This document shows, in pieces, positions 3,165 through 29,859 of a DNA stretch of 64,000 nucleotides. The translations under genes and the position numbers were made by a program. The stretch lies in IMG/VR virus record IMGVR_UViG_3300033405_000004, positions 93,323-157,322 of that record; one strand, written 5' to 3'. Under the pieces are notes generated by a model, which did not search any database, was not told where the DNA came from, and was given only the letters and a program-made list of their open reading frames with translations. How positions within the stretch are numbered: position 1 is the first letter of the stretch; the number at the start of each line of letters is the position of its first letter. The stretch is from a virus.

Positions 3165-3851
3165 TCACTTCTTGAGGCCTTCCACCCCGAAGATCACCGC
3201 GTCGCACTCCCGGTCCGAGGAGGCCAGCACCTTCACGAAGTGGAACCGGCTGTAGAGCAGGGAGGGGAGCCTGTCCTCGAACTTGAGGCCCGCCCAGCCC
3301 AGCCACCAGGTCTTCGGGTTGGGCCGCAGCAGGGTCAGGGTGCAGCCGGGCTGCACCAGCTCGGCGGCCTGCGCCACCTGCTCGGCGGTCAGGTTGCCCT
3401 CCCACCACACGGCCACGTCGTCGGGGAAGCCCCCGCGCTCGCCCTGGAAGTTGCCCAGCCGCATCTGGTCCAGCGTGCCGCCGCGGCGCATGGCCTTCCA
3501 GTCCCCGCACACGGCCAGGTAGAAGGCGCTGCCCTCGGCGGGCTCCTCGTGGCAGGCGGGGGCGCCGACGTGGAGCCGGAACTTGGCCGGGCGCAGCTTC
3601 CGCTGCTCCGGGTGGCACAGCCAGAAGGCCTGCATCATCAGCGGGGCAGGGTCGCCGCCCCGAAGCCTGCACGCGACGGCCTGCTGCAGCAGCGCCGAGA
3701 CCTCGGCCGGGGTGTCCTCCGCCTCGGCCCGCGCGATGGCCAGCTCCGCCTCCGCCACGGACTGCGGCGCGTTGAGCCTGGCCAGTCCCCGGTGGACCCG
3801 GACGTGGTCGGCCAGTTGCACCAGCAGTCTCGTTTCGAACAGGCTGTTCAT
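3165..3851 (-). CDS. Hypothetical protein (MNSLFETRLL...)
   Basis: ATG 3851 overlaps the upstream stop, high GC3. Confidence 0.65.
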   Translation of the reverse strand: MNSLFETRLLVQLADHVRVHRGLARLNAPQSVAEAELAIARAEAEDTPAEVSALLQQAVACRLRGGDPAPLMMQAFWLCHPEQRKLRPAKFRLHVGAPACHEEPAEGSAFYLAVCGDWKAMRRGGTLDQMRLGNFQGERGGFPDDVAVWWEGNLTAEQVAQAAELVQPGCTLTLLRPNPKTWWLGWAGLKFEDRLPSLLYSRFHFVKVLASSDRECDAVIFGVEGLKK

Positions 3852-27045: not shown

Positions 27046-27219
27046 ATGAAAGTAAAAGTTGGCAGCAAAATCTACGACGGCAACGACCAGCCAGTGATGG
27101 TCATTCTGTCCAAGAAGGATAAGTTCAACATCGCGCACATGCCTCCGCGCGTTAGGTGTTACTGTAGCTTTCCTGACGGTATGGACGCCAAGAAAGTCCT
27201 GCAATGGATGAAGAGATGA
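27046..27219 (+). CDS. Hypothetical protein (MKVKVGSKIYDGNDQPVMVIL...)
   Basis: 57-aa ORF, coupled by ATGA to the next gene. Confidence 0.6.
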   Translation: MKVKVGSKIYDGNDQPVMVILSKKDKFNIAHMPPRVRCYCSFPDGMDAKKVLQWMKR

Positions 27220-27599
27220 AGGTCACCCTGATCCGCGCCGACGTCACCAGCCTGAACGGGCGATGCTACCCGAAGGGCGTGCTGGAGCAGGCGCTCCTGA
27301 AGATGCCGCGCGAGATGTTCGGCACCGTCGGGTTCCTCGAATATGGCGAGCCGGTCACCCTGGAGAACGCCGCCTTCAGGGCCAGCGGCTTCGCCACCAA
27401 CGAGCGGGGCGACGTCGTCGCGGAGATCGCCGTCCTGGACACCGCCCCCGGGCGCAAGCTCTGCGAGCTGATCGAGAACAAGATCGACGTCGTGTTCCGC
27501 GCCGCCGGCACCGGCAGGCTGGAGGGGGCGGAGGTCAGGGAGTTCGAGATCACCGGCATCGCCATGCTGCCGAAGGAGAGGGACGCTTTCAACTTGTAA
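27216..27599 (+). CDS. T4 gp21-like prohead protease paralogue, catalytic residues absent
   Basis: ADVTSLNGRCYPKGVL, VLDTAPGRKLCELIE, VFRAAGTG. Confidence 0.7.
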   Translation: MKVTLIRADVTSLNGRCYPKGVLEQALLKMPREMFGTVGFLEYGEPVTLENAAFRASGFATNERGDVVAEIAVLDTAPGRKLCELIENKIDVVFRAAGTGRLEGAEVREFEITGIAMLPKERDAFNL

Positions 27600-27644
27600 G
27601 TCTAAAACTTTTCAGCCACAGTGTGGCTCGTTCTTTCCAACCCC

Positions 27645-28257
27645 GGGGGTGTACCGGATTCGATCCGGTCGTGACCGGGGCCCCTGCACGCCGGGCGATC
27701 CGACCTCACCCCGTAAAACTGCGGCCGGAACCATAGACGGCAACGACTATGACCAAAAGGTGATCAAGGTGGACTTCTCGAAGTCCGCCGAGGTCGCCCT
27801 GGCGGCCGCCTAAGCGGCCGCCCGCCGAGCCCCGACGCCTGCTGAGGGCCACGGCGACGCAGCAGGCGAAAACGGCGGCGGACTCAGCGTCGGAGAAGGG
27901 TGACTGGGTCCAAACCGACTTCGGCCGGGGTTGCCCAACCCACTCGTTGACAAACGGCGGCCGGCCCTTTGGTTGGGGACCGCTCCGCACTGGCTTGTCA
28001 GCGCAAGCCGAAAGGCGCGGACAAAACCGCGGGCACTTGCGAGGTCGCCAACCCATGCCAATGGGGACTCCTGGTAGGGCGACGCGTCCGGGGCTCACAC
28101 CCCGGGTTTTGCCGACAAGGCCGGGTCACGCGATGTCACGCAATGAAATGGAAGCGCCGGAAGTGCACGGGGGCGCGCCCCCGAACGATGCACGCAAGCC
28201 GGTTCTAACCCGGATCGAGGATAGCCCTGGGGGCCGGCGACCCCTGCGCTGACGCCA
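27645..28257 (+). ncRNA. ssrA: tmRNA-like RNA, tag (A)GNDYDQKVIKVDFSKSAEVALAAA*, with a non-canonical 3' domain
   Basis: 5' GGGGGTG..GGATTCGA, pk1-like CCCCGTAAAA, ATAGAC then resume codon 27739, stop 27811-13 in hairpin GGCGGCCGC/GCGGCCGCC, three pseudoknots to ~27980. The 3' boundary is inferred. Confidence 0.85.
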
Positions 28258-28264
28258 TTTTCCC

Positions 28265-28354
28265 ATGATGATTGCCTGCTCCATCCTGGCGGCCTGGCTC
28301 CTCTGGAAACTGCTCCATCGGTGGAGCGAGGACGCTCCCCGCGACTATGAGTGA
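28265..28354 (+). CDS. Possible 29-aa membrane peptide
   Basis: MMIACSILAAWLLWKLLHRWSEDAPRDYE fills the gap. Confidence 0.35.
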   Translation: MMIACSILAAWLLWKLLHRWSEDAPRDYE

Positions 28355-28364
28355 TAGTTAGGGC
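28355..28364 (+). promoter_or_regulatory. Representative late promoter TAGTTA-N4-start
   Basis: Same motif and spacing at about 13 gene starts (listed in findings). Confidence 0.8.
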
Positions 28365-28652
28365 ATGCCGAACGCGCGCCAGATTCTCGAAAGCCTCGTC
28401 GAAGACGAGGCCGTCCGCATCGGCCCGCCGCCGCGGGTGAAGTCCCTTACCGACCGGGAGTGGCTGGCCTGGAAGGACAGGCTCACCCCGCAGCAGTGGG
28501 AGGCCCTGGGGAGGGTGCGGGAGCGCTGGGACTGGGTGGCCGACCCGGGGTTCCTGCCGCTGGAGAAGTGCCTGATGGTCCACGTCGGCTCGAACGAGAC
28601 CGGGGCGGAGATGTGGCTCGGCATCGAGACCGATGGCCACACCCACTCCTGA
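28365..28652 (+). CDS. Small putative virion-internal protein
   Basis: TAGTTA-N4-ATG, N-terminal ARQILESLVE tag. Confidence 0.7.
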   Translation: MPNARQILESLVEDEAVRIGPPPRVKSLTDREWLAWKDRLTPQQWEALGRVRERWDWVADPGFLPLEKCLMVHVGSNETGAEMWLGIETDGHTHS

Positions 28653-29859
28653 CCTGCACGTCCCGCCCTACGACGGGTTCTGGCTCCGCCCCGACGGGCG
28701 GCTGTACCTCGTCGGGATCAAGGAGGAGCACGACGCGTGGGCGGAGGACTACTTGAGGCTTCCCAGCAACGTCTACGGCGACGCCAGGGAAAAGCTCCTG
28801 GCCATGGGCTGGTGGCGCGGCGTCAGGGAGACCGACGCCCGCGAGGAGGTCATCGGCGTCAACGGCGAGAGGCCGCTGACCAGCCGCCAGCGCGCGACCC
28901 TGGAGGAGGTGGGGATGGAGAACGGCATCCCCGTGGTGGCCTACTGGCCCGACCCGGAGGAGACGATCTATTCGCCGCCGGAGATGGCGGTGGCCGAGGC
29001 CCGGCTCCCGTACGTGCCCCGCGGCTTCTGGCTCACCCAGGCGGGGAAGGTGTACGACGTGGGCCTGGACGACCACGACCTCTGGGCGGCCGACTTCCTC
29101 GACTTCAAGCGGCCCGCGGACAGCGACGACCCCACTTATGGTGACAGCTCGCAGATCCTTCTGCGGCGCGGCTGGTGGCGGGCCGTGCTCATCGACGAGC
29201 AGTACATCGCCAACGGCGACATCGCGCTCACCCGCGCCCAGCGCGGGGTCCTGGAGGAGATGGGCCTGGAGGCCGGCGTCCCGGTGCTGGCCTACCTGGG
29301 GGCGCCGAGCTGGGAGGGCGGCGGGGAGCCGGAGGTGGTCTTCTCGCCGCCGACGGAAGTCGCGGAGGCCTTCGGGCGCGGCAAGCCGCTCGAACCGGCC
29401 ACGGTGGAAAGGCTCAGGGCGAGGCTGACGCGGGGCATGGAGGTCTGGCGGGGGTTCAGGCGGCCGGGCCAGAAGCCGGCCGACCCCGGCGACCTCGGCC
29501 AGGGCGCCTACCACAGCACCTCGCGCTCGCGGGCGTCCGGCTACGGCGAGCCCCGGCGGGTCGTCCTGCGTCTGCGCAACCCCCTCATCCTCTCGGCCGG
29601 CGAGGCCTACGACCAGGTCGCCGACCGGTTCGGCACGATCAGCGGGGTGGCCGGCGAGCCGCAGCACGGCGCCGGAGACATGGGGGCGCGGGCCCTGCGC
29701 TCGGCCGAGGCGACGGCGGCCCTCGTGCGGGCGGGGTACGACGGGCTGGTGGCCGTCAACCCGCACCGTTACGGCGGCCTGGGCGGCGAGATCGAAATCG
29801 TCCAGTTCCCGGCCGTCTCCGAGGAGGCCTGCCGGCTCGTCGACGCGTTGCTGGCGTGA
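28633..29859 (+). CDS. Tandem-domain protein with a C-terminal ADP-ribosyltransferase-like domain
   Basis: Two GFWL..G..Y..HD.WA..GWWR repeats, then VWRG / YHSTS / LRNPL / GYDG / EIE. Confidence 0.7.
   Translation: MATPTPDLHVPPYDGFWLRPDGRLYLVGIKEEHDAWAEDYLRLPSNVYGDAREKLLAMGWWRGVRETDAREEVIGVNGERPLTSRQRATLEEVGMENGIPVVAYWPDPEETIYSPPEMAVAEARLPYVPRGFWLTQAGKVYDVGLDDHDLWAADFLDFKRPADSDDPTYGDSSQILLRRGWWRAVLIDEQYIANGDIALTRAQRGVLEEMGLEAGVPVLAYLGAPSWEGGGEPEVVFSPPTEVAEAFGRGKPLEPATVERLRARLTRGMEVWRGFRRPGQKPADPGDLGQGAYHSTSRSRASGYGEPRRVVLRLRNPLILSAGEAYDQVADRFGTISGVAGEPQHGAGDMGARALRSAEATAALVRAGYDGLVAVNPHRYGGLGGEIEIVQFPAVSEEACRLVDALLA

What the first reader, a model, noticed from the sequence alone, without database searches (positions are those of the whole stretch)
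27645..28257. Phage tmRNA with an intact tag domain but its tRNA-like 3' end replaced by an unknown ~265-nt domain
Seen: canonical 5' end, pk1, resume context ATAGAC-GGC, a 24-codon tag ending ALAAA, helix 5 around the stop, and pk2-4 (CGCCG/CGGCG with CGCCTGCTG/CAGCAGGCG, GGACTCAG/CTGGGTCC with GTCGG/CCGAC, GGCCGG/CCGGCC with CCCAACC/GGTTGGG). No GTTCRA T-arm followed by CACCYCC-ACCA appears downstream or immediately upstream, so it is neither a standard nor a locally permuted tmRNA. Instead, 27991-28257 is closed by its own helix (TGGC-tt-GTCAGCGCA / TGCGCTGAC-GCCA). It ends in G-CCA after a 4-bp stem with a 7-nt loop (a 9/4 acceptor/T-like geometry). It also holds strands complementary to the tmRNA 5' part (CCGGATCGA at 28210 versus TCGATCCGG at 27660), so alternative folds are possible. 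Inference: a ~610-nt remodelled tmRNA that could be charged differently, completed in trans by a separate acceptor piece, or act as a decoy of trans-translation.
Basis: partly seen in the sequence, partly recalled or inferred. Interest (0 to 1): 0.85.

Follow-up and report, generated by a model that had tools for sequence, protein, structure and literature searches.

The report
Rewired phage tmRNA, mismatched acceptor
A large soil phage carries a 613-base relative of tmRNA, the RNA that rescues stalled ribosomes; its tag-coding part is intact, but about 200 extra bases sit in its tRNA-like end and the charged 3' tip pairs with an internal strand, so it is either a new split form or a recently broken gene.

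Summary
Window 27645-28257 (+) holds a tmRNA 5' half, pk1, a 24-codon tag, helix 5 and pk2-4. ARAGORN and Rfam find no canonical T-arm or acceptor; Rfam gives only a partial hit (19.5 bits against a cut-off of 47).

Three related jumbo phages carry complete one-piece tmRNAs of 355, 420 and 431 nt. This RNA is therefore a derived member of a clade that has tmRNA.

The 3' tRNA-like half is not simply replaced. The last 48 nt keep the family order: helix-2a 3' strand (9 perfect pairs with 27660-68), a linker, a hairpin of 5 pairs with a 7-nt loop, an 8-nt strand, then G-CCA. About 200 nt are inserted after pk4. The 3' strand pairs perfectly with 27997-28005, not with the 5' end, and there is no G3:U70 pair.

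My best reading (0.33) is a rewired tmRNA, probably cut by RNase P at 27996/27997 into two pieces held together by helix 2a. A recently disabled gene is almost as likely (0.30).

Every copy I could fetch is identical, no homologue of the 3' domain was found, and no expression data could be obtained. Conservation is therefore untested.

The parts
27614..27628 (+). Hairpin followed by a T-rich run, just after the upstream ORF (27204-27599). Likely terminator of the preceding gene; it marks the start of the non-coding locus.
   Evidence: the only terminator-like site in 27300-28700
27645..27651 (+). tmRNA-type 5' acceptor strand (G-rich 7-mer with G at position 3).
   Evidence: aligns with the 5' ends of the G001, G003 and G016 tmRNAs. 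No matching 3' strand with N-CCA and a T-arm anywhere in 175 kb examined.
27656..27668 (+). D-loop analogue (27656-63) running into the helix-2a 5' strand (27660-68).
   Evidence: 9 perfect pairs with 28210-18
27699..27729 (+). pk1 (stem 27699-705 with 27723-29, with the conserved loop motif).
   Evidence: Rfam RF00023 alignment
27739..27813 (+). Tag reading frame: resume codon GGC, 24 codons (begins Gly-Asn-Asp, ends Ala-Leu-Ala-Ala-Ala), stop TAA.
   Evidence: G+C at codon positions 3, 1 and 2 is 0.88, 0.58 and 0.29, like real genes of this phage.
27801..27822 (+). Helix 5: 9 perfect pairs enclosing the stop codon.
   Evidence: pair probability 0.95-1.0
27823..27977 (+). pk2 (27823-27868), pk3 (27880-27919) and pk4 (27923-27977).
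   Evidence: helices of 9 and 7 pairs; for the shorter stems. pk2 aligns with pk2 of the G003 tmRNA.
27991..28005 (+). Internal strand that pairs with the 3' end. 27997-28005 gives 9 perfect pairs with 28245-53; 27991-94 pairs with G-CCA. Proposed RNase P site between 27996 (U) and 27997 (G).
   Evidence: pair probability 0.98
28006..28209 (+). Inserted body of about 200 nt. It is non-coding, has no known family and has no homologue.
   Evidence: No frame shows a third-position G+C bias. No Rfam family at E up to 10. No match in phage records, in five related genomes or elsewhere in its own genome. MFE z-score only -1.7.
28199..28213 (+). Hairpin of 4 pairs with a 7-nt loop that reads like an anticodon loop (U33, CUA, A37). 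It is mutually exclusive with helix 2a.
   Evidence: pair probability 0.02; forcing it costs 4.3 kcal/mol
28210..28218 (+). Helix-2a 3' strand.
   Evidence: forcing the helix costs 4.9 of 303 kcal/mol
28229..28245 (+). T-arm-sized hairpin: 5 pairs including one G-U, with a 7-nt loop of non-canonical sequence.
   Evidence: Forcing it costs 1.9 kcal/mol, but its ensemble probability is only 0.007.
28246..28257 (+). Acceptor-length 3' strand (8 nt), discriminator G, then encoded CCA. Followed by U4 (28258-61).
   Evidence: The trailer resembles the one after the G003 tmRNA.

Best explanation
This is a real RNA gene that descends from the one-piece tmRNA of its phage clade and has had its tRNA-like domain rewired.

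Shown:
- The 5' tRNA-like half, pk1, the tag frame, helix 5 and pk2-4 are intact.
- The extreme 3' end keeps the family order: helix-2a 3' strand, linker, T-arm-sized hairpin, acceptor-length strand, G-CCA.
- About 200 nt are inserted after pk4.
- The 3' strand pairs perfectly with the first nucleotides of that insertion (27997-28005). With the RNA's own 5' end it makes only 5 of 7 pairs, with two adjacent mismatches.

Inferred mechanism:
1. The internal strand and the 3' strand form an acceptor-like helix of 8-9 pairs stacked on the terminal hairpin, 13 pairs in all.
2. RNase P cuts between U27996 and G27997. This fits U at -1, G at +1 and R-CCA at the 3' end.
3. That yields a coding piece (27645-27996) and an acceptor piece (27997-28257).
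4. The two pieces stay joined by helix 2a (27660-68 with 28210-18). In the uncut RNA this helix crosses the acceptor helix as a pseudoknot.
5. The complex would then enter stalled ribosomes and add the 24-residue tag.

Because there is no G3:U70 pair, charging by alanyl-tRNA synthetase is not expected. Charging by another enzyme is pure inference.
For: - Partial RF00023 hit over pk1, the tag and helix 5.
- The 5' end, pk1 and pk2 align with complete tmRNAs of related phages: G001 at 95 bits, G016 at 70.6 bits and G003 at 55.2 bits.
- The tag frame has coding-type composition (third-position G+C 0.88), unlike its flanks.
- 9 perfect pairs at 27660-68 with 28210-18, and 9 plus 4 pairs at 27991-28005 with 28245-57.
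- A minihelix plus N-CCA with a perfect upstream partner is rare: 3 in 314 kb, 0.7-0.9 in shuffles.
- The closing helix has pair probability 0.98, the same level as the true acceptor stems of the three relatives.
- Forcing the terminal hairpin costs only 1.9 kcal/mol, and forcing helix 2a 4.9.
- Relatives G003 and G016 also have non-canonical T-loops.
- The locus is identical in independent assemblies, so it is not an assembly artefact.
Against: - No covariation can be shown. All retrievable copies are 100% identical, and no homologue of 27991-28257 exists in any collection searched.
- There is no expression evidence.
- The terminal hairpin has ensemble probability 0.007, against about 0.97 for the T-arms of G001 and G016.
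- The 3' domain is not unusually stable (z -1.7, and -2.4 on the opposite strand).
- There is no G3:U70 pair, so the normal charging rule fails.
- The G-CCA end is itself paired with 27991-94.
- The canonical 5' strand is left without a partner, and this model does not explain why.
- About two perfect 9-pair helices are expected by chance in an RNA of this size and G+C content.
Confidence: 0.33

Rival explanations
1. Recently disabled tmRNA gene. A rearrangement, such as an insertion with inverted ends or an inverted duplication of the 3' strand, broke the acceptor stem. The RNA may still be made, but it can no longer be charged and is on its way to decay. The tRNA-like look of the 3' end is what remains of the ancestral domain.
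For: - Relatives have normal one-piece tmRNAs, and this one fails the defining acceptor test.
- No conservation of the 3' domain can be shown.
- The 3' domain folds no better than shuffles at the usual threshold.
- The ends of the extra segment are inverted repeats, as insertion events leave.
- The closest relative appears to have no RNA-sized gap at this exact position (gene table).
Against: - The tag frame, its resume context, helix 5 and all four pseudoknots are undamaged, and the tag keeps coding-type composition.
- The internal partner of the 3' strand is perfect over 9 pairs (chance of the order of 1e-3 to 1e-2).
- A phage with tightly packed genes keeps 765 nt of non-coding DNA here.
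- No second copy of the supposed inserted element exists in the genome.
Confidence: 0.3
2. Uncharged tmRNA mimic. The RNA is made and folds, but works without aminoacylation. For example, it could bind SmpB or ribosomes as a decoy that damps host trans-translation during infection, or act as a structured regulatory RNA.
For: - An SmpB-binding type 5' half and helix 2a are present, while the alanine identity pair is absent.
- The CCA end is sequestered in the closing helix (pair probability 0.9).
Against: - A decoy has no need of an intact, codon-biased tag frame with a stop in helix 5.
- No binding or expression data exist.
Confidence: 0.12
3. Two separate RNAs made from one transcript: a 3'-truncated tmRNA remnant, and downstream an independent tRNA-like RNA of about 260 nt (27997-28257). 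The second has its own acceptor helix, a small D-like hairpin, an anticodon-like hairpin (loop with CUA) and a T-arm-like hairpin. RNase P would release it, as it releases tRNA-like 3' modules from other long RNAs.
For: - The acceptor helix, terminal hairpin and G-CCA lie wholly inside 27997-28257.
- The hairpin at 28199-213 has U33, CUA and A37.
- The phage also carries a true CUA suppressor tRNA.
- In other relatives, tRNA genes sit directly upstream of the homologue of the downstream 408-aa gene.
Against: - ARAGORN and the Rfam tRNA model do not see it.
- U8, the D-loop G18-G19 and the T-loop consensus are absent (read).
- About 180 nt lie between the D-like and anticodon-like hairpins.
- The anticodon-like hairpin has probability 0.02.
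- The 9-pair match to the tmRNA 5' half (helix 2a) would then be coincidence.
Confidence: 0.1
4. Completed in trans. The orphan 5' strand (27645-51) pairs with a separate acceptor piece (T-arm plus a 3' strand with U70 and ACCA) encoded elsewhere in the phage genome of about 204.7 kb, as in two-piece tmRNAs but with unlinked genes.
For: - The 5' strand is conserved and keeps G3.
- About 29 kb of the genome could not be read.
Against: - There is no T-arm plus matching strand in the 157-kb record or in 18 kb of recovered upstream sequence.
- A helix-2a 3' strand and a tRNA-like end are already present in cis.
- Known two-piece genes keep both pieces adjacent (established knowledge of permuted tmRNA genes).
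Confidence: 0.07

Closest known systems
One-piece tmRNA (SsrA, Rfam RF00023) of related uncultured jumbo myophages: G001 (355 nt), G016 (420 nt), G003 (431 nt)
   Same: - Same 5' strand and D-loop analogue, pk1 motif, resume context and long tag beginning Gly-Asn or Ala and ending in Ala.
- Stop codon in helix 5.
- pk2 alignable with that of G003.
- Same order of elements at the 3' end and a similar trailer.
- T-loops in this clade are already non-canonical in G003 and G016.
   Different: - 613 nt instead of 355-431 nt.
- About 200 nt inserted between pk4 and helix 2a.
- A linker of 10 nt instead of 2-4 nt before the terminal hairpin.
- The 3' strand is not complementary to the 5' end.
- No G3:U70 pair, and G instead of A before the CCA.
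- It lies away from tRNA clusters.
Two-piece (circularly permuted) tmRNAs of Alphaproteobacteria, cyanobacteria, one betaproteobacterial lineage and aquatic phages
   Same: If RNase P cuts at 27996/27997, the mature form would also be a coding piece plus an acceptor piece held together by base pairing.
   Different: - The gene order is not permuted: the acceptor part lies downstream of the coding part.
- The acceptor stem would form inside one piece, not between the two pieces.
- ARAGORN's permuted search finds nothing.
- The upstream DNA is an ORF and a hairpin, not an acceptor piece.
tRNA-like 3' modules that are cut off or charged while attached to a long RNA (plant-virus 3' tRNA-like structures; RNase P-processed tRNA-like ends of long non-coding RNAs)
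   Same: A minihelix with N-CCA at the 3' end of a much longer RNA, with its 5' strand internal to the transcript.
   Different: These are not related in sequence and do not carry a tag template. The comparison is by working principle only and rests on recalled knowledge.
tmRNA genes interrupted by a group I intron in the T-loop (Clostridium botulinum type)
   Same: A tmRNA gene with a long extra segment in the tRNA-like 3' part.
   Different: - There is no group I intron match at E up to 10.
- No downstream exon could restore a T-arm and an acceptor strand matching the 5' end.

Membership tests
One-piece tmRNA (RF00023) | 5' acceptor strand followed by the D-loop analogue | tested here: met
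   27645-63 aligns with the Rfam consensus and with three clade tmRNAs.
One-piece tmRNA (RF00023) | pk1 directly upstream of the resume codon | tested here: met
   Rfam alignment, model positions 56-88.
One-piece tmRNA (RF00023) | Short tag frame without a start codon, ending in a hydrophobic/Ala-Ala tail, with the stop in helix 5 | tested here: met
   27739-27813: 24 codons ending Ala-Leu-Ala-Ala-Ala. The stop is in the loop of a 9-pair helix. Third-position G+C is 0.88.
One-piece tmRNA (RF00023) | Pseudoknots pk2-pk4 downstream of the tag | tested here: met
   Complementary strands are in H-type order. pk2 is alignable with G003. No covariation is available.
One-piece tmRNA (RF00023) | T-arm (5 pairs, 7-nt T-loop) directly before the acceptor 3' strand | tested here: inconclusive
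   A hairpin of the right size is at 28229-45. Its loop is non-canonical and its ensemble probability is 0.007. Forcing it costs 1.9 kcal/mol.
One-piece tmRNA (RF00023) | Acceptor stem formed by the RNA's 5' and 3' ends, with G3:U70 and a 3' ACCA | tested here: not met
   The 5' end and 3' strand give 5 of 7 pairs with two adjacent mismatches. The 3' strand pairs with 27997-28005 instead. The end is G-CCA. The three relatives all meet this feature.
One-piece tmRNA (RF00023) | Reaches the Rfam gathering score, or is detected by ARAGORN | tested here: not met
   19.5 bits against 47. ARAGORN finds none.
Two-piece (permuted) tmRNA | Acceptor piece (T-arm, 3' strand, CCA) encoded upstream of the coding piece | tested here: not met
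   Upstream lie an ORF end and a hairpin. ARAGORN, which reports permuted tmRNA genes, finds none. Rfam permuted families give no hit.
Two-piece (permuted) tmRNA | Mature RNA in two pieces | not testable with these tools
   This needs RNA end mapping.
Group I intron-interrupted tmRNA | Group I intron core, and exons that restore the tRNA-like domain | tested here: not met
   No RF00028 match at E up to 10. No downstream exon exists.
Miniature inverted-repeat mobile element inserted in the gene | Terminal inverted repeats plus further copies or a target-site duplication | tested here: not met
   Inverted ends are present. There is no flanking direct repeat, no other copy in the genome, and none in phage records or relatives.

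The most novel reading that the evidence does not exclude
This would be a third architecture of tmRNA. The gene is unpermuted, but the acceptor stem has moved onto an internal strand. RNase P then splits the transcript into a coding piece and a self-contained acceptor piece, re-joined by helix 2a. Lacking G3:U70, the RNA would start its tag with an amino acid other than alanine, or be charged by a phage-directed route.
Probability: 0.18. Interest if true: 0.85.

Novelty: new variant of a known kind. Interest (0 to 1): 0.55.

Why it matters
tmRNA is known in two gene architectures, one-piece and circularly permuted two-piece. In both, alanine charging through G3:U70 is treated as universal.

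An RNA that keeps a perfect tag template while its acceptor stem is re-paired to an internal strand would be one of two things. It could be a snapshot of how a split tmRNA arises. Or it could be a functioning exception to the alanine rule. Either would bear on how phages tamper with ribosome rescue.

If it is only a fresh pseudogene, it is still a useful warning. In this phage clade the T-loops are so odd that ARAGORN misses even the intact genes.

Tried and rejected
**Searches for homologues of the locus. None gave a relative of this RNA.**
- blastn against 50,697 phage records.
- Neighbouring proteins in IMG/VR.
- A word-based search with the 131-aa neighbour, which found only itself.
- A 5'-end pattern in IMG/VR: 47 hits, all unrelated tmRNAs.
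- A pattern built from the clade's 5' end and pk1, run in IMG/VR and in the metagenome collection. It found only G001, a variant of it, G003 and three bacterial tmRNAs.
- The tail-sheath profile in species genomes: nothing.
- The 3' domain against five related complete genomes: nothing.
- A HMMER search with the 408-aa neighbour. Its cluster representative is this phage's own protein, and the next hit led to a different phage with tRNA genes at that spot.

**Closer relatives.**
- The closest relative (65% ligase identity, 84-kb ENA contig) has no DNA on file.
- The NCBI MAG contig of a 56% relative shows no tmRNA within 10 kb either side of the ligase gene. It could not be searched whole.

**Trans acceptor piece.** I walked 18 kb beyond the contig start and found none. 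About 29 kb remain unseen.

**Readings rejected.**
- Protein-coding reading of the 54-codon ORF 27649-27813, which JGI calls as a gene: only the tag part has coding composition.
- TAG recoding as a link to the suppressor tRNA. TAG ends 37 of 151 ORFs, and in-frame continuations are no more frequent than chance.
- Group I intron, RNase P RNA, Y RNA and riboswitch families: no match.
- Enrichment of helices between the first 56 nt and the 3' domain: 4 seen against about 2 expected, which is not significant (and my estimate).

**Steps that could not be run.**
I redid that step from coordinates.

Full report
**Where it lies.** The window is the last 64 kb of a 157,322-base IMG/VR virus record, which CheckV rates 69% complete. 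Longer contigs of the same phage, up to 204,715 bases, exist. The phage is a large myovirus with 68% G+C. It encodes a tail sheath, DnaB, a UvsX-like recombinase, a family A polymerase and an NAD-dependent ligase. It has no cultured relative above 30% sheath identity.

The locus fills a 765-nt gap between an ORF ending at 27599 and one starting at 28365. No frame of 27991-28257 shows the third-position G+C bias of this phage's genes: 0.64-0.73 against 0.94-0.96.

**Checking the observation.** ARAGORN finds no tmRNA in the window or in the whole record. Rfam finds nothing at gathering thresholds. With permissive thresholds its best hit is RF00023 at 27699-27856, covering model positions 56-185 of 374, at 19.5 bits against a cut-off of 47 and E 1.6e-5. 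That stretch is pk1, the tag and helix 5.

The tag frame starts at a GGC resume codon in the usual context. It has 24 codons, ends Ala-Leu-Ala-Ala-Ala and stops in the loop of a 9-pair helix. G+C at codon positions 3, 1 and 2 is 0.88, 0.58 and 0.29, which mirrors real genes here (0.95, 0.63, 0.40). The 90 nt upstream in the same frame, which a gene caller joined to it as a 54-codon ORF, has 0.67.

The whole record holds only two canonical T-arms. One belongs to a suppressor tRNA and the other lies inside an ORF.

**It belongs to a clade that has tmRNA.**
- The tail sheath has metagenomic relatives at 37-67% identity on contigs of 150-250 kb.
- A profile of those relatives retrieved 78 IMG/VR loci.
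- I searched 37 of those records whole; most are small fragments. Three carry complete one-piece tmRNAs: G001 (355 nt, 95 bits), G016 (420 nt, 70.6 bits) and G003 (431 nt, 55.2 bits).
- All three have 5' and 3' strands that are complementary, with G3:U70 and ACCA. The thermodynamic model predicts their acceptor stems at 0.98 or above.
- Their tags are long and start with Gly-Asn or Ala, like this one.
- The 5' 20 nt, the pk1 loop and pk2 of our RNA align with them.
- Two of the three (G003, G016) have T-loops that do not begin U-U-C, and ARAGORN misses both.

The RNA here is therefore a derived form of an ancestral phage tmRNA, and odd T-loops are a trait of the clade.

**What the 3' part looks like against that background.** In the relatives the 3' end reads: helix-2a 3' strand, 2-4 nt, T-arm, 7-nt acceptor strand, ACCA, then a U-rich trailer. 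In our RNA the last 48 nt read:
- a 9-nt strand (28210-18) perfectly complementary to 27660-68, the strand that follows the D-loop analogue;
- 10 nt of linker;
- a hairpin of 5 pairs with a 7-nt loop (28229-45);
- 8 nt (28246-53);
- G, then CCA, then U4.

The tRNA-like 3' half is therefore recognisable and in the family order. Two things differ:
1. About 200 nt (28006-28209) lie between pk4 and helix 2a, where the relatives have 25-40 nt.
2. The 8-9 nt before G-CCA pair perfectly with 27997-28005, just after pk4. With the RNA's 5' end they make only 5 of 7 pairs, with mismatches at positions 2 and 3, so there is no G3:U70.

**Is this chance?**
- An RNA of this size and G+C content should contain about two perfect 9-pair helices by chance. 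It has five, of which two are helix 5 and pk2.
- Position makes the other two notable. A minihelix of 8+5 or 9+4 pairs followed by N-CCA, with a perfect partner within 400 nt upstream, occurs 3 times in 314 kb of both strands, against 0.7-0.9 in shuffles. Finding one at the end of this locus has a chance of about 1e-3.
- A perfect partner for the helix-2a strand within the last 50 nt or so has a similar chance (my estimate from base composition).

Cautions:
- The 3' domain folds only marginally better than shuffles (z -1.7; 12 of 200 shuffles fold as well). The opposite strand does slightly better, at z -2.4.
- In the ensemble the closing helix has probability 0.98, but the terminal hairpin has 0.007 and helix 2a about 0. 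The T-arms of G001 and G016 are predicted at 0.97-0.99.
- Forcing the hairpin costs 1.9 kcal/mol and forcing helix 2a costs 4.9, out of 303. Both are inside the error of the model.
- Helix 2a and the internal acceptor helix cross each other. In an uncut RNA they form a pseudoknot.

**No comparative test was possible.** The locus is 100% identical in the JGI, ENA and Logan assemblies I could fetch. No homologue of 27991-28257 was found in phage records, IMG/VR, the metagenome collection, five related complete genomes or the phage's own genome.

The nearest relative (65% ligase identity) is on record without DNA. Its gene table shows the same four neighbouring genes. There are only 60 nt where our RNA sits, and a 1,012-nt gene-free gap two genes further on.

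I recovered 18 kb upstream of the contig start. It holds no tRNA, no tmRNA and no acceptor piece. About 29 kb of the genome remain unseen. The 157 kb hold no SmpB, Ro60-type or CCA-adding enzyme gene.

**Interpretation.** The intact, codon-biased tag template argues that the RNA was under selection for trans-translation until recently. So do the preserved order of the 3' elements, the perfect internal partner of the 3' strand, and the retention of 765 non-coding nucleotides in a compact genome.

The simplest working model is this:
1. The internal strand and the 3' strand form the acceptor helix.
2. RNase P cuts between U27996 and G27997.
3. The two pieces stay joined through helix 2a.

That would be an unpermuted route to a two-piece tmRNA. 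Against it stand the missing alanine identity pair, the unexplained orphan 5' strand, the pairing of G-CCA with 27991-94, and the total lack of covariation or expression evidence.

A recent disabling rearrangement explains the same facts almost as well. I give the rewired or split model 0.33, the fresh pseudogene 0.30, an uncharged mimic 0.12, two separate RNAs 0.10 and completion in trans 0.07.

**Novelty.** Phage tmRNAs, one-piece and two-piece, are well known. I know of no description of a tmRNA whose acceptor 3' strand is matched to an internal strand. Two library searches for phage tmRNA variants turned up none. It is best filed as a new variant of a known kind, with function unproven.

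Noticed in passing
L002:1479-1555 (genome 57898-57974, outside the window): The phage carries a tRNA with a CUA anticodon, an amber suppressor that ARAGORN labels Pyl. TAG ends 37 of 151 predicted ORFs, and in-frame continuations after TAG are no more frequent than chance, so I saw no sign of TAG recoding.
   Followed up: partly
window 28199-28213: A hairpin inside the 3' domain has a 7-nt loop that reads like an anticodon loop (U33, CUA, A37). This is the same anticodon as the phage's suppressor tRNA. The hairpin is mutually exclusive with helix 2a and is not favoured by the folding model.
   Followed up: partly
L141:8667-10130 and L141:11964-12023: The closest relative with DNA (67% sheath identity) has a TROVE/Ro60-type gene inside a cluster of at least ten tRNA genes, with a partial YrlA (Y RNA-like) match beside it (44.3 bits, cut-off 69). 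This looks like a phage Ro60/Y RNA module.
   Followed up: no
L131:1501-1931 and L169:1501-1920 (minus strand): Complete tmRNAs of two related jumbo phages have T-loops that do not start U-U-C. ARAGORN misses both; Rfam finds them at 55 and 71 bits. tmRNA counts in this phage group based on ARAGORN will be too low.
   Followed up: partly
L155:3837-3988 (also L156, L157): In another phage lineage, tRNA-Thr and tRNA-Pro genes sit directly upstream of the homologue of the 408-aa gene that follows our RNA. This spot seems to be a recurrent slot for RNA genes.
   Followed up: no
window 27649-27813: A public gene call of 54 codons covers the tmRNA 5' part and the tag in one frame. Only the last 25 codons have coding-type composition, so the call is an artefact of the tag frame.
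   Followed up: yes
window 27629-27645; L002:1434-1450; genome 612 (minus strand); L174 around 3480-3500: A T-rich stretch followed by a short box containing C-A-A-C recurs upstream of the suppressor tRNA, of this RNA (a weaker copy) and of several genes. It is often followed by a conserved start-site motif. It is a candidate phage promoter; the core 8-mer alone is not rarer than chance.
   Followed up: partly
window 28258-28364: The 107 nt between the CCA end and the next gene hold two overlapping hairpins and a 29-codon ORF. The ORF would encode a hydrophobic peptide but lacks coding-type composition (third-position G+C 0.57). Its role is unknown; it may be a terminator or processing region.
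   Followed up: partly
L175 (JGI sample 3300033982, contig of 78,038 bases): A strain variant of this phage exists with several differing small genes near the contig start. Its copy of the RNA locus, if recovered, could give the first sequence variation.
   Followed up: no
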